A stretch of DNA of 64,000 nucleotides from Octopus vulgaris. Lineage: Eukaryota. Numbering within the stretch: the stretch's first letter is position 1; every line of letters starts with the position of its first letter. The DNA is taken from positions 175,088,001-175,152,000 of the forward strand of contig OX597815.1 of NCBI GenBank assembly GCA_951406725.2. The letters run 5' to 3'. Below are positions 1-56,851 of the stretch, piece by piece. The notes beneath the pieces are model-generated. The model saw only the letters and a list, made by a program, of their open reading frames with translations, had not been told where the DNA came from and made no database searches. The position numbers and the translations under genes were made by a program.

Positions 1-819
1 TATATTTAAAATTCAAAATTGATCCTAACTGAGCCAACCTACTTTAAAACCCTAAATCAACCCTAACCTATATTTAAAAGCATTCTAACCATGACCATCT
101 CAAATACTTTTCCTTTTAAGCAATATCTACCTTGAACTACATTATCGAATGTGTCCTTTTAAACAATGTAGTTTAAGGTAGATTTGGCTGCTATTTCTAG
201 TTTGTTAAGCAGATCACAGAGAGGTTCTGTCATCTCACAGAGTTCTGCTAAATTATAGCAAGTTATATAAATTTATATATGGCAGTCATCATCATCATCA
301 TCTGTCTGCTTTGTATACTGGTCTGGGTTGGTATTATAGTCCAGCTCAGTTCCTGTTTGGAGTTATTACCCTCTCACATGTGTCGGGGGTCTGTGTGTTG
401 CATGTACCTTTCATTCTGGGAATATTTTTGTGGACGGTTTAGGATTAAAGAGATTGGGACTGGGTTGCTTCTTGTTTTTTGTCCTCTAAAAGAGTACAGC
501 TAGTTGATTGGTTTCTAGTATGTTAGAGATAATTATCTTATTGTCTTTCCACATTGATGAATAATATGCAAAGTTAATCTCAAAAAGGTTAGGAATTCAA
601 CTGAGAGCTGTGAAAGAAAGAGTAAAGTAACACCTTTCAGCTCTCTACCATCCACACCATTTCTACTTTATTTTTTAATGTGTGTGTGAATGTAAGATTA
701 TTGCATATGAGAATAGGGGTGTTTTTATAATCCAATGCCCTAAGCCATCTTATTCTCTAACTCAACTATCTCTGTCCCTCTATCAGCTTCCAGCTGAGGG
801 GTTTTTGTTTTGTAAGTTG

Positions 820-1015
820 CTTGGTGACCTTGTTGGTGCCACATAAAAAGCATCTTATACACTCTGTAAAGTGGTCAACAGGAGAAAGGGCATTCAGCTG
901 TAGAAACCAAACCAAACCAGACAACTGTAGCCTTGTGTGGCTCCTGACCATGCCAGTTCCTGTCAAAGTGTCCAACCCATGCCAGCATGGAAAACAGACG
1001 TTAAATGATGATAAT
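820..1015 (+). mobile_element. RTE LINE 3' tail fragment; representative of ~20 dispersed copies (e.g. 1950-2170+, 4880-5050+, 11170-11300+, 11530-11710-, 11960-12125+, 13720-13910+, 36950-37130+, 51470-51650+, 55555-55690+, 56300-56495-, 57100-57210+, 58550-58710+)
   Basis: Shared gtggttggcattaggaagggcatccagctgtagaaacc...ccaacccatgccagcatggaaa.cagacgttaaa(c/t)gatgatgat, which also ends the RTE copy at 8700-10077. Confidence 0.85.
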
Positions 1016-8699: not shown

Positions 8700-10077
8700 G
8701 CCAACCTAGCTAAAACCAAAGTCTTAATAAGTAGGAAGGCAGACAAACCACAAATCCCTTCAGGTAGATGGCCCTGCTCGATCTGTAGAAAAGGTGTAGG
8801 TAGAAACTCCATAAGATGTACCCAGTGTAAGCTATGGACACATAAGAGGTGCAGCAATATCAAAGGAAGGCTAACTGGGGTGGCAAATGCTCAGGTGCTA
8901 TAAACACTGAAAATTTGCAGAGAACAGCTTCTGTCACATTCCAGGGAGAAAAACTACAAGTAGTTGATAGCTTCCATTACCTAGGTGACCAAGTCAATAG
9001 CAGGGGTGGATGCTCTGAAAGTGTAGCTGCTAGAATAAGAATAGCCTGGGCAAAGTTGAGAGAGCTCCTAGCTCTGCTGGTGACAAAGGGCCTCTCACTC
9101 AGTAAAAAGTAGACTGTATGAAGCATGTGTACAAACAGCCATGCTACATGGCAGTGAAACATGGGCCGTGACTGCTGAGGATATGCGTAAGCTCGCAAGG
9201 AATGAAGCCAGCATGCTCCACTGGATGTGTAATGTCAGTGTGCATACACAACAGAGTGTAAGCGCCCTGAGAGAAAGGTTGGATTTAAGAAGCATCAGAT
9301 GTGTGCCAGAGAGACAACTACACTGGTATGGTCATGTGTTGTGAAGGAATGAGGACAGTTGTGTGAAAAAGTGTCACACCCTAGCAGATGAGGGAACTTG
9401 TGGAAGAGGTAGATCCAGGAAGACCTGAGATGAAGTGGTGAAACATGACCTTCAAACATTGGACCTTAATGAGGTAATGACTAGTGATCGAGACCTTTGG
9501 AGATATGCTGTGCATCAGAAGACCCGACAAGCCAAGTGAGACTGTAACTGTGGCCTATGCCAGTGGGTGTAACCAGCCCATTCACTTATGGATACCTCTC
9601 ATTCATTGGACAATAAACTTTGCTTGCGAAGACCTATTGAGGCAAGTGAAATCAAATCAAAATCACTGACGTGGCCGATGACAGTACCACCTGACTGGCA
9701 CTCGTGCCAGTGGAATGTTAAAAGCACCATCCAAGCATGATAGTTGCCAGGGCCACAGATTGGCTCCCGTATCAGTGGCATGTAAAAAGCATCATTTGAG
9801 CGTGATCATTGCCGGACTGGCTTCCATGCAGGTGGTATGTAAAAAACACCTTTTGAGCGCAGTCGTTGCCAGAACCGTCTGACTGGCTCTCGTGCTGGTG
9901 GCACGTAAAAGCACCCACTACACTCTCAGAGTGGTTGGCATTAGGAAGGGCATCCAGCTGTAGAAACTTTGCCAGATCAGATTGAGCCTGGTGCAGCTTT
10001 CTGGCTTGCCAGCCCTCAGTCAAACCGTCCAACCCATGCCAGCATGGAAAGCGGACATTAAACGATGATGATGATGC
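8700..10077 (+). mobile_element. 5'-truncated RTE-clade LINE (end of RT with PHD insert, C-terminal region, structured 3' UTR, (GAT)n tail)
   Basis: NLAKTKVLI, CSICRKGVGRNSIRCTQCKLWTHKRC, LQVVDSFHYLGD, MLHGSETWAVT, RQLHWYGHV; frameshifted. Confidence 0.9.
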
Positions 10078-12132: not shown

Positions 12133-13210
12133 TCATCATCATTCAATGTCCATTTTCAGGGTGGTTTGACTGGTGCTGGCAACCAGAGGGTTTCACTGGG
12201 CTCTGTTGTCGGCTTTGGTATGATCTCTATGGCTGGATGCACTTCCTAATACCAACCACTAAATAGTATACTAGGTGTTTTTTACATGGCACCAGCACTG
12301 GTAGGGGTCACCAAGTAACTTGCAAGAGAAAAAAACCCTTAACTAGGAGGGGATGTAGTATTGAGGGAGATGGCTTTGAAGTACAGTGGGTGGGGTGAAT
12401 ATAGGTGGTACAGAGTATTGAACAGGTTGAGTGGGCTGGGAAGATGGAGGAGGAAGTTTCATAAGAGTGTGAGGAGAGACGGGGTAGAGGTGACTGTGGC
12501 TAGTGATAGTGAGAGATGTAGGAGTGGCTCAAAGGTGCTCTGGTAGATATGTGAGGGCATTGCAAGTGATGGAAAGATGAGAGAGGAATTAAGGATGGAG
12601 TATAACAGAGCAGAGAGATCAATCACTGAATACTTCGTCTTGTGTCTTCCTCTTCTACAAGTTCCATCCACTTCAAGCAATCAGCACTTTTTTATGCAAC
12701 TGTCCTCATCCCAACACATCACATGACCAAACCATAGCAGTCTTCATTCTTGCACACATTTCATCTGATTCCTCTTATTCCTAACTTTTCTCTCAATACA
12801 TTTGCACTGTGTTGTGCATGCATACTAACATTGCACATCCAGTGGAGCATAAAAGCTTCATTGCTTCTAGTCTTCACATGTCCTCTGCATTCAGGGCCCG
12901 CATCTCACTACCATGTAGCATCTTTGTACATACACAGGCATCATACAGTCTGCCTTTCAGTGGAGGAGAGTAGGAGAGAGACCTTTTGGTAACAGTTCTT
13001 TGACTATTCTCCATCTTATTCTTATTCTAATGACTACACTTTCAGGACATCCTCCTCCACTGCTAATTAACTCTTCTAATTAACAGAAACTATCCATTAC
13101 CTCTAAGGAGCCTCAATGGTATTTGAGAAAATCAATTTCTTGTGTAGCCTTAGACTTTGTGGCAGCTCTGTATCTTCCACGTACAAACACTACATTCTAT
13201 GTTAACCCTT
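12133..13210 (-). mobile_element. RTE LINE fragment (tail, purine-rich 3' UTR, C-terminal ORF)
   Basis: Reverse-complement similarity to 8900-9420 and 16450-17020. Confidence 0.8.
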
Positions 13211-23086: not shown

Positions 23087-23318
23087 ATCATCATCGTTTA
23101 ACGTCCGTTTTCCGCGCTAGCACGGGTTGGACGGTTTCGACCGGGGTCTGGGGAGCTCGGGACTGCCCCAGGCTCCAGTCTAGTCTGGCAGTGTTTCTAC
23201 AGCTGGATGCCCTTCCTAACGCCAACCACTCCGCGAGTGTAGTGGGTGTTTTTACGTGCCACCTGCACAGGTGCCAGAGGGGTCTGGCATCGGCCACGTT
23301 CGGATGGTGCTTTTTATG
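23087..23318 (-). mobile_element. Young-looking RTE 3' tail inserted in the SINE (AT)n tract
   Basis: CpG-rich copy of the tail consensus with (ATC)n end. Confidence 0.85.
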
Positions 23319-23875
23319 GGGGGGGTGCAGAAATATAGGGGAGCACCAGTGGGAGGGGTGGTTCAGAGGACAGGTACTAGTCAAGTAGAACGTAGGATAT
23401 CGAGAGAGGGGTAATGCATGGTGAAATAGCGTATTGAAGAGGAGGGTTCAAAGAGTAGACACCTATAATGGTGGTGGGGGGTGCAGAAATATAGGGGAGC
23501 ACCAGTGGGAGGGGTGGTTCAGGGGACAGGTTCTAGGCAAGTAGAACGTAGGATATCGAGAGAGGGGTAATGCATGGTGAAATAGCGTATTGAAGAGGGG
23601 GGTTCAAAGAGTAGACACCTATTATGGTGGTGGGGGTGTGCAGAAATATAGGGGAGCACCAGTGGGAGGGGTGGTTCAGAGGACAGGTTCTAGGCAAGTA
23701 GAACGTAGGATATCGAGAGAGGGGTAATGCATGGTGAATAGCGTATTGAAGAGGGGGTTCAAAGAGTAGACACCTATAATGGTGGTGGGGGGTGCAGAAA
23801 TATAGGGGAGCACCAGTGGGAGGGGTGGTTCAGAGGACAGGTTCTAGGCAAGTAGAACGTAGGATATCGAGAGAG
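23319..23875. repeat. Purine-rich minisatellite, ~156-bp unit x 3.5
   Basis: aaatataggggagcacc recurs at 23331, 23487, 23644, 23798; units nearly identical. Confidence 0.95.
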
Positions 23876-43159: not shown

Positions 43160-43890
43160 GAAATCCAAACCTTTTCCCCGGGTGCTGAATACTGTCCCAA
43201 TTTCCTATGTTCCCTCCCACATCCCTTCCCCAGTTTTCAAAGTTGGCACTGTCAATGTAGGCACACTGAAAGGTAGGTCTGGTGAGATTGCCGAGATGCA
43301 TATGGACGACAAGGACAGCTGTGTAAAGAAGTGCCAATCTCCAAGTGTGGAGGGAACCTGTGCAAGAGGTAGGCCCAGGAAGACATAGGACGAGGTGATG
43401 AATTGACCGAGACCTTTGGCAAATATGCCATGACTGAGAAGACCTGTCAAGCCAAGTGAAACCGCAGTCGTAGCACGTAACAAGCAGCCCATCAAATGTA
43501 GGGTAGTAGGCTGTGCCTGAGAAGACACATCAAGCCAAATGACATCATAGTTGTAGCCAATGGCAGAGACACATAAATGACACCTGTGCCAGTGGCACAT
43601 AAAAAGCACCCTTTGAACTTTGGCCATATACCGTGCTTGAGAAGATCTGTCAAACCAAGTGAGATCATTGTTGTGGCTAATGCCAGTGTTTCATAACTGG
43701 CACCCATGCTGGTGGTACATAAAAAGCAACCACTACACTCTTGGAGTGGTTGGTGTTAGGAAGGGCATACAGGTGTAGAAACCATGCCAAATCAGATTGG
43801 AACCTGGTGCAACTCCCTAGTTTTCTGTCAAACCATCCAACCCATACCAGCATGGAAAACAGACATTAAATGATGAGGGCGATGATGAAT
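43160..43890 (+). mobile_element. Internally deleted (bipartite) RTE derivative
   Basis: Endonuclease N-terminus FKVGTVNVGTLKGRSGEIAEM joined directly to the C-terminus HMDDKDSCVKKC...RGRPRKT and the 3' tail. Confidence 0.75.
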
Positions 43891-45628: not shown

Positions 45629-46243
45629 GGGGGGGGGGGGGGGTAAATATTACTTTTCAGTATTAACACTGCCTCTGTTGCTTGTGTATGTTTTGTCAAA
45701 GACAACCTGTCCAGTGCTGGTCTGCATTGTAACAATGGCAAGGAGACTCAACAACAAAGTAGATTATTTATTTGGTTTACTGTGAAGGCACATGGTCCAG
45801 TGGTGAGGGTATTGCACACACACACAAATGTTAAGAGTATGGGTTCCATTGCCAGACTTGGTAGCATGTTGTTGTGTTCTTGAGCAAAACACGAAGAAAA
45901 GACCCATTTCTTCTATCTTAAAAGGCAACTAAAAGAGGTTGAAATAGGATTTGCACTCCAACCTCGTAAAACTGGAACCAGCAACAACTATTTGAAAAAA
46001 ACCCAACAGGTTGGAGGGTTGTCACCAGAGTGGTGCAGGGGTGTCATCGGCCAAGACTTGAAGGGAGCCACTAATAAAGGGCGGATGTAGCAATGCACAG
46101 TTTATAGTGCATCCCCCTCTCCCCCATACTACTACTACAATATGAGGACTGTGGCAAGTTACAAGATATTAACCATGCAAGATAATCTGCATACAGAAAC
46201 ATACAAAGAAAGGAATATAAATAAATGAGAAAATTTCACTGAC

Positions 46244-47676
46244 CCACTTCATCAAGTATTTGACAGTAGAAGCAGTCTGTGTCCACAACCCATTTACACA
46301 GCAGTTCATATTGTGTGTTGACCTTCAGCTGTAGACATCCCATGCTTTTAGCAAAATACTTTACTCTGTTTGCTCGTAACATATCTTCTTGACAAACTTC
46401 CTGTTTTGAAGTTTTGGTGCTTAGAGATAGCATAATGGATTCCTTTGTTTGTCTATCGTCAGGCAACGTTTTCTCAGAAGAAAACTGGTTCTCAAAATCA
46501 TGTTCAGCAGAGTCCCTATGATGTCGACGGCAAGAGGGAGGATAGGTCATTTGTGCAGGAGACGATGCATCCACTGGTTGCCCTTCAATGCTTTGAGGAG
46601 ACTGAGAACGAGATCTGAACGGGGATATTGAAAGAGAGCTAGCAGATTTTACAGAGTTTGACTTTGATGTAGCAGTGCTATTTAAAGACTGACTTCTGGG
46701 GAAATAGTCATTCGGAGCATTCTTCTCCAAGCTTTCTTCAAAGCAATCATTAACACAGCTGCCATCACTAGTATAAACAACAACTTCATAGACATTTTTG
46801 GAGCAGCCTTCTATCTTATATTTGCACACATTGTTGCAGATGAGCTGACTGAATTTCTCGTTGTCTTTAATACCACACACGCCAGGAAGATAGCAGTGTA
46901 AGGCTTGTTTAGGATAAGGAGTGAAATGCACAGGAAACGGCTGCAGTTGTAGTTTATCAACATACTCAGAGTTACCATAATCAACAAAAAAGACTTTATA
47001 TCTGCCATCTGCAGTGGTGCTGATTATCTGACCACGATACCACTGGTTGTCCTGTGAAAACTTGGCTGCAACCATTTCATTGAGACAAGGAGTATAACCC
47101 TTATGGTCATCTTTCTTTTCCAAGTAAGTATTGAATTCTTCAAGGAAACTTATCTGTTTCTCGCTGACAACAATTATATAAAATGAATCATTAAGGATTT
47201 CGACAGCCAAACCATCCAAGACCTCACCAATACTGACTTCACAACCTTTCAATTCTGAAGCCATGACTTTCAATGGGGAAGTCAACAAATCCATGACAGA
47301 AGCCTCTCCATTACAATCATACAAATTCCACTGACATTTCTTTCCACATCCCATGTATAGACCTAAAATACATTCTTTGGAAAAATCTTCACTTTTAGTT
47401 AAGGATTTTAAAATTTGATTGAATTTCTGACGCATCTTAAAAGAGTCATCATTTCTTCCAAAAAAATTTACACTTTCAAGTTTTGATGGAATACAAAGAC
47501 AAGGATAATCCAAACAGAAAGGCATGGCAGAACGACAATGTTCCAAGTGTAGCATCTTTTCTGCACCAAAATCTATCAGAGAAACCAGTAAAGAATCATT
47601 ATTGATGTCCAATACTTCAGCTCGGGCCCATTCTTGTGTTTCTAATTTTATCAAAACTAGCTGACCTTTGAAGGGG
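46244..47676 (-). CDS. TDRD1: TDRD1-like 1433-nt exon: Tudor 2 core, eTudor 3, Ser-rich linker, start of eTudor 4
   Basis: Inside ORF 46236..47771; ttgcag acceptor; GTGG|gtcagt donor (phase 1 needed by next exon); AAKFSQDNQWYRG...FFVDYGNSE. Confidence 0.95.
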
Positions 47677-48195
47677 CTGCAAGAAAAAGTAAAAAAAAAA
47701 AAATTATTGTAATCCATATAGAAAATATCACAAACTGTATAAAACTTGTGTACATATATCAGATAAACCATATGAAGAAACTAAACTGTGTCATCATTTA
47801 ACGTGAATTTTCTGTTTTGGATAGTTTGACAGGACCTGGCAAGGCTGGGACCACACCAGGCTCCATTCTATTTTGGTATGGTTTCTACAGCCAGATGCCC
47901 TTACAGAATGGGCTAAGGGCTTTGTGCCAGATTAAAGATATAGAGGGACATAGATAGGTGTCTTGCTGTTGAGCTGATACCCCAGATAGAAAATGGTAGA
48001 GATCGAACTGTGATGACATTCCTACAAGGAAATGTGGGGGAAGGGAAGAATATGGGTGAAATGACAGAGGTTTGGGGGTGGGATAGAAGGGAAAGTTTCA
48101 CAAAAGGAGAGATGTAGAAAGGTGACTGTAAAGGTGACTGTAGAAAGGTAAAGGTGAGAAATATAGGAGTGACTCGGGGGGGGGGGGGGGGGGGG

Positions 48196-49423: not shown

Positions 49424-50440
49424 TATATATATGTGAGGGCATTGAGAGTGATAGCTGATAAGAGATGTTGAGGATGGAATATAGCAGAGAGATGGAGAGA
49501 GGGAGAGCAATGGCTGAAGGAACAGAAAGGACTGGCAGAAATAGTGGGCAGGGAAGATAACAAGAAATGGAAATAGTTGGGGGAGGGGGTATCCAAAGAG
49601 AGGAGATATATGTGCCACAGATAGAGAAGTGATGAATGTTAGGTGGTGAGATGTGGGGGAAATTCTTGACATAAGAAAGAAGATGGAGATGAAGCAGAGC
49701 TCCACATATACAATCATTAGTAAGGTGATTTTAGGATATCAATTATGGATGGGTCTTCATGACCACATGAAGCTGCCAGTCATCTCAAAAAACCATCATC
49801 TTTAGACTGACTTTCAATACTTTGTCCCAAGTCTTCCAGGGTCTTCTACCACAAATTCCATCCCACCTTAAATGATTGACACTTTTTTATGCAACTGTCC
49901 TTGTCCATATGCATCACATGGCCAAACTAACACAGTGTTCTCTCTTGTGCACTACATCTAATCCCTCTCATGCCCAACTTTTCCCTAACACATAAGCACT
50001 GTCATACATGCAAACTGACATTGCACATTCAACACAGCATATTAGCTCCATCTCTTTTCTAATCTTCACATGTCCTCTGCATTTAAGGCCCAGATCTCAT
50101 TACCATGTAGCAATACTGTTCATACACATGCGTCATACAATCTTCCTTACACTCAAAGAGAGAAAGAGAAACCATCCTGTACATATTCTAACAATTACAC
50201 TCTTGGAGCATCTTCCTCCACTGCTAATTAGATTACCTAGTTAACAGAAATTATCTACTAACTCTAGAGAGCTTCCAGTGTGACCTCAGACTCTATGGCT
50301 ACTAAGCACCTACAGACCTTTGGAAGTATTATGTGCGTGAGAAAACCCGGCAAGACCAGTGAGAACAGTCAAAATCAAAATCAAACCAAATCAATTCATA
50401 TATCAGAAAGCAGAACCAAATTGAGGTCGATCAACATCAG

Positions 50441-50785
50441 GGCCCCCGTGCAGGTGACACGTAAAAGCACCATCCGTTCGTGGCCGTTTGCCAGCCCTGT
50501 CTGGCCCCCGTGTCGGTGGCACGTAAAAGCACCATCCGTTCGTGTTCGTTGCCAGCCTCGCCTGGCCCCCGTGTCGGTGACACGTAAAAGCACCATCCGT
50601 TCGTGGCCGTTTGCCAGCTCTGTCTGGCCCCCGTGTCGGTGACACATAAAAGCACCATCCGTTCGTGTCCGTTGCCAGCCTCGCCTGGCCCCCGTGCCGG
50701 TGACACGTAAAAGCACCATCCATTCGTGGCCGTTTGCCAGCTCTGTCTGGCACCTGTGCGGGTGGCACGTAAAAAGCACCCACTA
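50441..50785 (+). repeat. Tandem array of 61/62-bp alternating units in an RTE 3' UTR
   Basis: Unit starts 50441, 50503, 50564, 50626, 50687, 50749; followed by the RTE tail and (GAT)n to 50950. Confidence 0.95.
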
Positions 50786-51748
50786 CACTCACTGAGTGGT
50801 TGGCGTTAGGAAGGGCATCCAGCCGTAGAAACACTGCCAGATCTGACTGGGCCTGATGAAGCCTTCCAGCTTCACAGACCCCAGTTGAACCGTCCAACCC
50901 ATGCTAGCATGGAAAACAGACGCTAAAAGACAATGATGATGATGATGATACAAACACTACTTTCTATGTTTTAGCCTTCCTATTATTCCACTGCATCTCT
51001 TGTGTGTCCTTAGCTTGCACTGAAAACACCTGCCTACATATCAATCAGGGCCACTTACCCGAAAAGGATAGTGATCCTGTCTGTTTTATTGCTTACTAGA
51101 ACCTTGGTCTTTAACAAGTTAACTTTAAGACCTTTCAATTCTAGCTTTGGATGCTGGTGATTTTATATCAAGTATACTAAGTACTGAGCAAGACCATAGC
51201 GCTGAAGATTTCTCTCGTCTTTCTTTCTTATTTAGTCTTTGCTAAGTTTACCTTGGGGAAACTCAAGTCTAAGTTTAGCTTTCATGCCTGGAATTTCCTA
51301 ATTCGCTTCCTCTCCTTCTCCACAACCATGTAAATCTCACTCTCCCCATCCATTACACCTGTTTCTCCACCCCCCACCCCACGCACACGTCATTTCTCTC
51401 TCCTGTAGCCTTTCTTACCCAAAGAGGATCTTAGGATGCATGGCAACATTACTAGAGCTGGAGCCATAAAAACCAATTAACCAGTGCACAGTTTATAAAG
51501 TGATTGGCATTAGGAAGGGCATCTGTCCATAGAACCCATGCCAAAGCAGACCTCAGAATACACTGCAGTTGTTGGATCTATCAGATCCTGTGAAATCACC
51601 CAACCCACGCCCACAAGGAACAATGGACATTAAACGATAAGGATGACGTATACCCACCCACCTACACACATATCCATTGTCACCTGACACATTTTTTCAA
51701 CTGTCATACCTGCCTATGCTCACACTAATTTAAAAAAACCAAACTTAC

Positions 51749-55424: not shown

Positions 55425-56851
55425 CTGAAATAGAAGAAAATTAACTCTATTAAGTACACAATAACGCAGTTCTCTAAGCAGCAACAGGATACAATCTAAA
55501 ATAATTGACAAAAGACTTAATGCTGTCCAATGACAATGCATTAGTCTATTAAAAGGTGTCAGAAAGGGCAGCATCCAGCCATAGAAACCATCCAAATCAG
55601 ACTGGAGCCTCACACAGCTCTCCAGTTTGCTAGCTCTGGTCAAACTGTCCAACCTTTGCCAGCATGGACAACAAACATTAAACGATGTTGTAATTCATGA
55701 ATATACTCATCAAAACAGACAAAAAATAAAAAATTATAGGTTGTTTTTTTTTTAATACAAACTGAAGAGTCTTAACTATTCCCAAATTATGAAATTCCAC
55801 TTTCTCTACATCAACTGTAGCAGCAGTTCAACTAGCCACTAGTACTAGCAACATAACAAAACAAAACACCATGAAACTAAAGCTATATGAAATAGCTGCA
55901 ATGCTAGTTAGTTCTCTGAACTGAAATTGTACCACCTTGCAAAGATCTCACCATCATAAAGAATCCTCAAATTTATCAGAACTTATGCATAAGAGAATAT
56001 CCACTATCCTAATTTTACGACATAGTCCTGCATCATCATTTAGTGTGTTTTCCATGCTGACATGGGTTGGACGTTTTGACAGGAGCTGGCAAGTCAGTCA
56101 GCACATAGTGGTCAAATACTATTCTAAACTGTTAGGCCAATCTAGGAACTGACCAGGTGCACTGTTTCCACCCTCTCAACAACAATCACTAAGGACATCT
56201 AGGGAACAAACTTAAAAATGACAACTTTGCACAAAAATATTTCACATCTTTAAAGAGGCCAAGTTGTTTGTCCTCATACTACAGTATCTTCTACCCACCC
56301 ATCATCATCATTTAACGTCCGCTTTCCATGCTGGCATGGGTTGGACGATTTGACTGAAATCTGGCGAACCAGACTCCAATCTGATCTGGCAGAGTTTCTA
56401 CAGCTGGATGCCCTTCCTAACGCCAACCACTCCAAGAGTGTAGTGGGTGCTTTTACGTGCCACCGGCACGAGGGCCAGTTTGGTGGTCCTGGCACCCAAA
56501 CACACTGAAATAGCAATGTTACACTCCAGCCACTGTACCTGGATGGATATCATAGTTCAAAGGAAGAGTGACTGTCATGCTCTGACCAAGTTTATCTTTA
56601 TACTTACTTTATACTGTGGCCATCACTAGAATCTATAGATCTACAGAAATGAGGATAGAGTCTAGATCCAGGATTCAACACTAAATCTCATACAATAAAC
56701 TAATGCCTAGTAAATCCCAGAACAGAAGTAGGTGTGCAACACCTAAATGTTCAAACAACTGCCTGAAGTTTCTTCAACCAGAATTCATCTACAAAAGCAA
56801 CAATAATCTTCAGTGATTAAGCAAGATAAGGCTTTTTTCAAATGTACTCAC

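What the first reader, a model, noticed from the sequence alone, without database searches (positions are those of the whole stretch)
50441..50785. Tandemly amplified RNA module (variable-loop hairpin + predicted H-type pseudoknot) in RTE 3' UTRs
Seen: each unit contains GCCAG-loop-CTGGC followed by CGTGY-N-GGTG-RCACG-TAAAA(A)G-CACC. The second part can fold as a compact H-type pseudoknot: S1 CGTGY/RCACG, a 1-nt loop, S2 GGTG/CACC, and an A-rich loop. Across copies S1 covaries: CGTGT/ACACG at 50570; CGTGC/GCACG at 9891 and 56446-56470 (-); TGTGC/GCACA at ~43585; U-G wobble at 50509. Two units (50447, 50693) carry a C-A mismatch. The loop base takes all four values (A, C, G, T), which fits the pseudoknot better than a plain 6-bp hairpin. 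The GCCAG/CTGGC stem persists while its loop varies in length and sequence (CCCTGT, CCTCGC, AACCGTCTGA, GACCACCAAA, TGTTTCATAA). Copy number differs by insertion: 6 here (62/61-bp dimer), about 4 at 9690-9915, 2 at 43585-43730, 1 at 56446. Known: non-LTR 3' UTRs carry RT-recognition structures. Inference: this is a selected, expandable RNA device (RT loading, nuclease block or translational control). I know of no description of it.
Basis: partly seen in the sequence, partly recalled or inferred. Interest (0 to 1): 0.75.

Follow-up and report, generated by a model that had tools for sequence, protein, structure and literature searches.

The report
Pseudoknot repeat in octopus jumping genes
The tail of a very common octopus jumping gene carries a chain of short repeats, each predicted to fold into a small RNA knot that likely came from the front end of related jumping genes; the fold looks conserved across animals, but the extra copies mostly behave like an unstable DNA repeat rather than a tuned device.

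Summary
The array is real: six 61/62-bp modules in the 3' UTR of a 5'-truncated RTE-type LINE, with 22,043 exact module copies genome-wide. The outer pair varies like independent CpG decay (p=0.86), and the junction pair is anti-correlated in this subfamily (C·A 87, U-G 58 of 177). Better evidence comes from outside. The same module sits 40-44 nt before a conserved downstream domain in 3 of about 42 non-octopus families, with two double-transversion changes in stem 1. There it lies in 5' UTRs or SINE-like elements and continues Kojima's (2018) conserved RTE 5'-UTR domain. Stem 1 is supported; stem 2, and so the pseudoknot, is likely but shows no clean compensation. Amplification behaves like a minisatellite: 6-15 units in complete arrays, locus-private expansions to 31, decay of upstream units, and 2,351 copies lacking the terminal knot. 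There is no Rfam match and no 5'-end hot spot, so a ribozyme or nuclease block is unlikely. Verdict: a conserved, apparently undescribed RNA fold moved into a 3' UTR and mostly neutrally amplified; function untested.

The parts
50314..50362 (+). Last codons and TGA stop (50360-50362) of the RTE ORF; the copy is 5'-truncated here
   Evidence: blastn of the near-full-length copy L226 starts at 50314; L226 encodes AP endonuclease, RT and a PHD-like finger
50363..50446 (+). Unique A-rich start of the 3' UTR (5' flank of the array)
   Evidence: shared by 19 of the 30 closest copies
50447..50780 (+). Tandem array: six modules (50447, 50509, 50570, 50632, 50693, 50755) separated by an 18-nt linker and the GCCAG-loop-CTGGC hairpin; alternating 62/61-bp units
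50736..50751 (+). Hairpin A of the terminal unit; likely counterpart of the GCC/GGC hairpin of the conserved RTE 5'-UTR domain
   Evidence: stem columns nearly invariant, loop variable; the homology is inferred
50755..50780 (+). Terminal module, predicted H-type pseudoknot: S1 50755-59/50765-69, loop 1 50760, S2 50761-64/50777-80, A-rich loop 50770-76
   Evidence: S1 compensatory changes across lineages; loop 1 hypervariable; S2 inferred
50786..50798 (+). Hairpin B (CACTC/GAGTG, variable 3-nt loop)
   Evidence: a counterpart with changed pairs in non-octopus copies
50798..50823 (+). Conserved downstream domain, found in 5' UTRs of other RTEs
   Evidence: 74 metagenome and 9 genome-contig loci; endonuclease ORF starts downstream of it in 8 loci
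50891..50950 (+). Terminal stem-loop and (GAT)n tail, the conventional RTE 3' end
   Evidence: sequence; fold; A-U/G-C variants in 134 and 7 copies
9670..10076 (+). Older subfamily copy, four modules, only the last intact
23087..23314 (-). Very young 1.5-unit tail fused to an unrelated 156-bp array (23320-23875)
43585..43888 (+). Old copy with two decayed modules
56300..56478 (-). 5'-truncated copy with one module

Best explanation
This is the 3' UTR of an abundant RTE-type LINE, and its repeated unit is likely a folded piece (hairpin plus predicted H-type pseudoknot) of a conserved retrotransposon 5'-UTR domain that was likely captured into the tail and then multiplied. Shown: the module occurs 40-44 nt before the same downstream domain in an RTE 5' UTR and in SINE-like 5'+3' elements of other organisms, and in the 5' UTR of an unrelated endonuclease-last LINE family of this genome. 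Inferred route: the LINE swapped its tail for that of a two-part non-autonomous RTE. Inferred function: one folded unit near the 3' end helps the element's protein hold its RNA, next to the terminal stem-loop, as the R2 3'-UTR pseudoknot does. Extra copies arise by slippage and unequal exchange, are largely neutral, and at most act as spares.
For: Position and compensation: without asking for stem 1, the motif matches 10 times in 85 domain copies (169,761 bases), all at -40 to -44, 9 with 4 of 4 stem-1 pairs and 1 with 3, none elsewhere; these fall in 3 of about 42 families. Stem 1 reads GUGC/GCAC, GUGA/UCAC or GAGA/UCUC: two pairs change on both sides, and RNAalifold finds the stem unaided. 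In L160 the module lies upstream of an endonuclease ORF. The GAGA form continues the Kojima domain (model R1 hits 4 of 5 canonical copies at E about 1e-3). In that paper's supplement the same stem shows A-U to G-C in four families (by eye). In octopus, all 6 columns with more than 10% transversions are predicted unpaired (6 of 21 vs 0 of 38, p=0.001). The non-CpG variants around the terminal module in contigs of four organisms lie in predicted loops and linkers, apart from the outer S1 position. An older octopus family with C at the junction has a variable former partner (C 9 of 25 vs 128 of 141) and can extend stem 2 to 5 pairs. Neutral array: 6-15 units in 19 complete arrays, with locus-private units repeated up to 9 times in 24- and 31-unit arrays. 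Intact units fall from 125 of 179 (terminal) to 49 of 97 (third) and 13 of 40 (fourth).
Against: Stem 2 has no pair with a change on both sides among its four core pairs, only G-C to G-U. Estimated pseudoknot energies are no better than the best nested fold in 7 of 8 modules, and the array's minimum-energy fold pairs units with each other. A covariance model of the GAGA-form families does not find the octopus array at E up to 10, so homology rests on position, the shared core and the intermediate L216. Only three outside lineages and two compensatory events; the 8-row alignment was hand-picked. 2,351 genomic copies lack the terminal stem-1 arm (vs 33,927 intact) and are enriched in one loop type (24 of 100 vs 1 of 100 listed), so deleted forms probably kept spreading. 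The column test filtered for near-intact stems, which biases it. Fifth and further units are 30 of 59 intact, which breaks the gradient. No binding or probing data exist.
Confidence: 0.5

Rival explanations
1. Hitch-hiker: the unit folded and mattered in the ancestral 5' UTR, but in the octopus 3' UTR it has no function and is only a minisatellite next to the real recognition hairpin.
For: No covariation within the genome and an anti-correlated junction pair; local expansions; deleted terminal modules in 2,351 copies; a very young family keeps only 1.5 units behind an unrelated array; most copies of the downstream domain elsewhere lack the module (39 of about 42 families).
Against: Across many octopus subfamilies the loops diverge by transversions and length while stems and the A-rich loop stay fixed, which needs selection after the move; deletion carriers that extend upstream keep another unit.
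Confidence: 0.25
2. Translation or stability enhancer whose strength scales with unit number, working like the tandem pseudoknots in the tobacco mosaic virus 3' UTR, for an RNA that ends in (GAT)n; in 5' UTRs the same fold would help translate ribozyme-cut RNA.
For: Compact geometry with an A-rich loop; every complete 3' UTR in the subfamily consensus sequences has several units; unit number is highest in the young subfamily; the TMV domain can be replaced by poly(A) (PMC5382211, passage).
Against: Majority units carry C·A or U-G at the junction, upstream units decay, and long arrays arose locally. Analogy only; polyadenylation of these RNAs is unknown.
Confidence: 0.12
3. DNA-level element: an internal promoter or factor-binding palindrome (arms around a 3-5 bp spacer), amplified like rodent L1 monomers and driving short 3' transcripts.
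For: Kojima 2018 suggests factor binding for the parent domain (discussion); the module is a near-palindrome; an earlier scan note reports 5' monomer arrays in RTEs of this genome (e1-8670260, unchecked).
Against: Both arms change together by transversions, G-U-type states are tolerated and spacer length varies in the parent domain, which fits RNA pairing better; 5' junctions do not cluster.
Confidence: 0.08
4. Self-cleaving ribozyme or Xrn1 block that produces short 3' RNAs.
For: The same slot before the downstream domain holds a twister ribozyme in L185 (Rfam RF03160, E 2.9e-7, below the gathering score) and HDV-like-looking sequence in others (by eye, recalled motif).
Against: No Rfam match. 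60 mapped 5' junctions within one unit length spread evenly (chi-square p=0.47, at most 4 at one position). Cutting here would part the ORF from its tail, yet a near-full-length copy carries 9 units.
Confidence: 0.05

Closest known systems
[quoted passage not shown]
   Same: The GAGA-form modules (L182 family, octopus L336 family) continue this domain letter for letter upstream; it occurs in RTE, R4 and Ingi LINEs and is sometimes doubled (AviRTE).
   Different: Described there as sequence only, in 5' UTRs and SINE bodies. Here the stem letters have diverged, it lies in the 3' UTR of an autonomous LINE and is repeated 6-31 times; a profile does not bridge directly to the octopus unit.
R2 3'-UTR pseudoknot bound by the R2 protein (R2Tg; PMC12222951)
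   Same: Small pseudoknot in a non-LTR 3' UTR close to the priming end.
   Different: R2's is single, at the last 67 nt and shown necessary; this one lies about 170 nt upstream of a separate terminal stem-loop, is repeated, and is untested.
RTE 3'-terminal hairpin and microsatellite tail (PMC6007223)
   Same: Present at 50891-50950.
   Different: It is a separate element; the array is additional.
SVA VNTR and rodent L1 5' monomers (recalled)
   Same: Variable-number tandem units inside an active retroelement, with turnover at single loci.
   Different: Here the unit is a predicted RNA fold in the 3' UTR.
Polerovirus H-type pseudoknots and the TMV upstream pseudoknot domain (PMC5382211)
   Same: Compact H-type geometry with an A-rich loop (geometry recalled); tandem knots in a 3' UTR.
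   Different: No sequence relation, no slippery site or frame context, viral versus retrotransposon.
RTE-2_OV of Octopus vulgaris (PMC9115989)
   Same: Single-ORF octopus RTE with a finger domain and a repeat that fills most of a 600-nt 3' UTR, called a microsatellite there.
   Different: Two of its published oligos do not match L226 at 3 mismatches, so probably another family; its repeat could not be seen.

Membership tests
RTE-clade non-LTR retrotransposon | Single ORF with AP endonuclease followed by RT | tested here: met
   L226: PF03372/PF14529 then PF00078, in two frames of a decayed copy
RTE-clade non-LTR retrotransposon | 3'-terminal stem-loop and short-repeat tail | tested here: met
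   50891-50950
RTE-clade non-LTR retrotransposon | RT groups with named RTE elements in a tree | not tested
   No tree built; homologues are unnamed RTs from octopus, Hydractinia, Branchiostoma and Mercenaria. Clade assigned from architecture.
RTE-clade non-LTR retrotransposon | Target-site duplication | tested here: inconclusive
   Longest shared word 8 nt, away from the ends
H-type pseudoknot | Stem 1 kept by compensatory change | tested here: met
   2 of 5 pairs across lineages; not within the octopus genome
H-type pseudoknot | Stem 2 kept by compensatory change | tested here: inconclusive
   100% paired, one-sided G-U changes only; a possible fifth pair is C-G in the older octopus family and U-A in the GAGA/GUGA forms
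H-type pseudoknot | Unpaired short loop 1 and A-rich loop 3 | tested here: met
   Loop 1 has 34% transversions; UAAAA nearly invariant, loop length 6-9
H-type pseudoknot | More stable than nested alternatives; seen by probing | tested here: inconclusive
Conserved RTE 5'-UTR domain (Kojima 2018) | Sequence similarity to the domain | tested here: inconclusive
   Met for the GAGA forms; not met directly for the octopus unit; bridged by L216 and position
Conserved RTE 5'-UTR domain (Kojima 2018) | Located in the 5' UTR or a SINE body | tested here: not met
   3' UTR here; 5' UTR in L160 and the L336 family
Self-cleaving ribozymes (twister, HDV-like, pistol, hammerhead) | Match to a family model or catalytic core | tested here: not met
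   Rfam: nothing better than E 1.6; cores compared from recall are absent
Self-cleaving ribozyme or xrRNA | Uniform 5' ends of copies | tested here: not met
   60 junctions evenly spread; an indirect test
Self-cleaving ribozyme or xrRNA | Cleavage or Xrn1 resistance in vitro | not testable with these tools
   Needs bench work
Retroelement-internal VNTR | Variable unit number among complete arrays, local turnover | tested here: met
   6-15 units in 19 complete arrays; locus-private units repeated

The most novel reading that the evidence does not exclude
The conserved 5'-UTR domain shared by RTE and endonuclease-last LINEs across animals is an unrecognised pseudoknotted RNA device for loading the element's protein or the ribosome. 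Octopus RTEs moved it to the 3' UTR and use tandem copies as a dose-tunable enhancer, the retrotransposon counterpart of tobamoviral tandem pseudoknots.
Probability: 0.15. Interest if true: 0.8.

Novelty: new variant of a known kind. Interest (0 to 1): 0.48.

Why it matters
Why SINE bodies and RTE 5' UTRs keep a conserved domain from cnidarians to birds is open; Kojima 2018 could only suggest factor binding. Compensatory changes point to an RNA fold, which gives a 26-nt structure with named pairs to mutate. RTE elements are being engineered for gene insertion and their UTRs affect yield (PMC13708176, passages), so UTR folds are of practical use. The array also shows a structured module moving from one end of a LINE to the other and spreading to tens of thousands of copies. 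If the copies are neutral, the array itself is an ordinary minisatellite.

Tried and rejected
Rfam on 50300-51000: two chance hits. On 14 and 10 related loci: only the L185 twister, microRNA hits on AT repeats and one chance snoRNA hit, so the HDV-like calls are by eye only. No tRNA head in the window. Viral contigs: one chance match for the module, none for the domain. Model R1 finds neither the octopus array nor further modules in 67 other loci. Within-genome covariation rejected; one subfamily does carry U-A at the outer pair as its majority state, reachable by two CpG transitions, so weak support only. Pistol, twister and hammerhead cores (recalled) are not present. Sequencing runs: no RNA holder listed; only contigs could be laid, so nothing on expression or RNA ends. 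Identity with RTE-2_OV not supported; supplement files 5-8 of that paper were not searched. PDB search with the endonuclease-like frame of L337 found nothing. Repbase and Dfam could not be searched. Earlier scan notes: no look-alike by sequence or words.

Full report
OBSERVATION. The motif is far above chance in the window (16 vs 0.53) and has 22,043 exact matches in the 2.8-Gb genome (control 0). The first module lacks the hairpin, the 43585 copy has a broken stem 2, and only the last of the four units at 9690-9915 is intact.

SETTING. The 30 closest loci show the array between the end of an RT reading frame and a fixed tail. L226 is a near-full-length copy with AP endonuclease, RT and a PHD-like finger; the window copy begins at 50314, about 50 nt before the stop. 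The best named protein hits are from Octopus bimaculoides and O. vulgaris. The order is: stop, unique flank, array, hairpin B, a conserved domain, a long hairpin, terminal stem-loop, (GAT)n. RTE assignment rests on this architecture; no tree was built. The 5' 300 nt of L226 show no copy of the downstream domain.

In 158 units from 86 elements sampled without regard to this motif (1.06 Mb; 800 kb of it chosen beside known element-rich places), the outer pair is CG47, TG47, TA26, CA24 (p=0.86), as expected from independent CpG decay. In 177 units of 20 young elements the junction pair is CA87, TG58, CG19, TA13 (odds ratio 0.05): the two alternating unit types each lost the C-G pair on one side. 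One subfamily has U-A at the outer pair as its majority state, which is weak support. The pattern of conservation is more telling. Among 141 of 175 terminal units that could be parsed, all six columns with more than 10% transversions are predicted unpaired (6 of 21 vs 0 of 38, p=0.001), and loop 1 is the only hypervariable base in the module. The parsing favoured intact stems, and a rank test over all columns gave p=0.07. Contigs of four coded organisms laid on the terminal unit show the same: variants above 8% lie in the hairpin loops, linkers, loop 1, CpG sites and the outer stem-1 position.

EVIDENCE FROM OUTSIDE. A scan for the downstream domain gave 74 metagenome loci and 9 genome-contig loci (85 domain copies). 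In 8 of them an endonuclease reading frame starts downstream, so the domain is a 5'-UTR element there. Just upstream of it one finds a twister ribozyme (L185), HDV-like-looking sequence (by eye), other hairpins, or the module. With no requirement on stem 1 the module matches 10 times, always at -40 to -44, in 3 of about 42 families. They are L160 (RTE 5' UTR), L216, and the SINE-like 5'+3' family of L182. Stem 1 reads GAGA/UCUC or GUGA/UCAC against GUGC/GCAC. On a hand-picked 8-row alignment two stem-1 pairs change on both sides, and stem 2 is fully paired with one-sided changes only; RNAalifold recovers stem 1. The GAGA form also lies in the 5' UTR of an old LINE family of this genome whose relative P0121 has the RT followed by a C-terminal endonuclease-like region (the domain was recognised from recall). 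An older octopus tail family has C at the junction: its former partner is variable (C in 9 of 25) and stem 2 can extend to five pairs (selected by likeness to a core motif).

ORIGIN. [quoted passage not shown] The canonical form has 55 exact matches here; five were fetched, and a model of the GAGA families hits four of them at E about 1e-3. In the supplement the stem's middle pair is G-C in RTE-1_NV, RTE-4_NV, RTE-3_BF and RTE-1_DR, broken in RTE-21_Croc, and A-U in most of the others shown; GG and CC stay nearly fixed while the bases between vary (by eye). The paper gives no fold for the domain in the parts read. The same model does not find the octopus array, so the last link is inferred from position, the shared GGUG-AAAA-CAC core and L216. 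Two-part RTE derivatives and tail exchange are described in PMC5786205 and PMC7245038 (passages), which makes capture into a 3' UTR plausible.

THE ARRAY. Older subfamilies carry about 3-5 diverged units (1-5 were parsed in most of 204 sampled elements, many of them truncated). In the young subfamily, 19 of the 30 closest copies have a complete array of 6-15 units (the query biases towards 6 or more), and truncated arrays reach 24 and 31 with locus-private units repeated up to 9 times. That is minisatellite turnover. Units further from the 3' end are less often intact (125 of 179, 96 of 151, 49 of 97, 13 of 40, then 30 of 59). A 15-nt deletion between two short direct repeats removes half of the terminal module in 2,351 exact copies against 33,927 intact ones. 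It is enriched in one loop type (24 of the first 100 listed vs 1 of 100), so deleted forms probably went on spreading. Of 9 carriers in my sample, 4 have an intact unit upstream, 1 a decayed one and 4 are truncated. Of 75 mapped 5' junctions, the 60 within one unit length are evenly spread (p=0.47).

ENERGY. Rough estimates without coaxial stacking put the pseudoknot level with or above the best nested fold in 7 of 8 modules, and the nested minimum for the whole array pairs units with one another. Folding alone does not decide the question.

MECHANISM. Shown: location, copy number, turnover, stem-1 compensation, position in other elements. Inferred: stem 2, capture from a two-part element, and function. 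I commit to one folded unit serving as an extra handle for the element's protein, with surplus units neutral or spare (0.5). The precedent is the R2Tg 3'-UTR pseudoknot (PMC12222951, passages). Rivals: pure hitch-hiker (0.25), dose-dependent translation enhancer (0.12; PMC5382211, passages), DNA element (0.08), ribozyme or nuclease block (0.05; PMC8501958, abstract, shows ribozymes at RTE 5' ends).

WHAT IS IN PRINT. Nine searches found no description of this fold or array; the motif search listed six papers, none opened. PMC9115989 (section 6 and passages; supplement files 5-8 not searched) notes a repeat filling the 3' UTR of RTE-2_OV, probably another family. PMC13282606 (part 1 of 3) lists 13 recently active RTE families in O. 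vulgaris without UTR detail in the part read. PMC6007223, PMC4758252 and PMC13708176 were seen as passages. Repbase and Dfam entries could not be checked and may note the repeat.

VERDICT. Real, partly misread. A conserved and apparently undescribed RNA fold of a known retrotransposon UTR domain, relocated to a 3' UTR and amplified mostly neutrally. New variant of a known kind; interest 0.48.

Noticed in passing
window 23320-23875 with 23087-23314 (-); L061-L090: A very young non-coding family (about 1% divergent, at least 40 copies) joins a variable 156-bp array to a 1.5-unit RTE tail.
   Followed up: partly
window 50798-50823; L152-L225, L236-L244: A second conserved RTE UTR domain, not found in Kojima's supplement by exact word, lies in 5' UTRs behind twister or HDV-like-looking ribozymes and in 3' tails; it likely folds (GGA/UCC hairpin, one pair C-G to U-A).
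   Followed up: partly
L421-L425 and PMC5786205 supplement: The 5' part of the Kojima domain looks by eye like two further H-type pseudoknots, which would make the whole domain a chain of knots.
   Followed up: no
L336-L360: Old LINE family with the GAGA-form module in its 5' UTR; in 7 of 25 loci a later part of the same ORF lies directly upstream (head-to-tail or permuted layout).
   Followed up: partly
G000, e.g. L362, L388, L411: 15-nt deletion of the terminal module between short direct repeats in 2,351 exact copies, enriched in one subfamily.
   Followed up: partly
L185:1521-1599 (-): Twister-P1 ribozyme at the front of an internally deleted RTE (Rfam E 2.9e-7, below the gathering score).
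   Followed up: no
L174, L180, L198, L169, L203: SINE-like families starting with a conserved CCCC...GGGG stem just before the downstream domain; no Rfam match for L198 or L169.
   Followed up: no
L236-L244: Animal-type RTE and SINE sequence inside prokaryote MAG contigs, probably contamination or misassembly.
   Followed up: no
window 46236-47780 (-): 514-codon open frame with Tudor domains, probably a host exon.
   Followed up: no
window 780-1015, 1954-2170, 12170-12330 (-): Older tail family with the same downstream domain and a module in which the junction base can join stem 2.
   Followed up: partly
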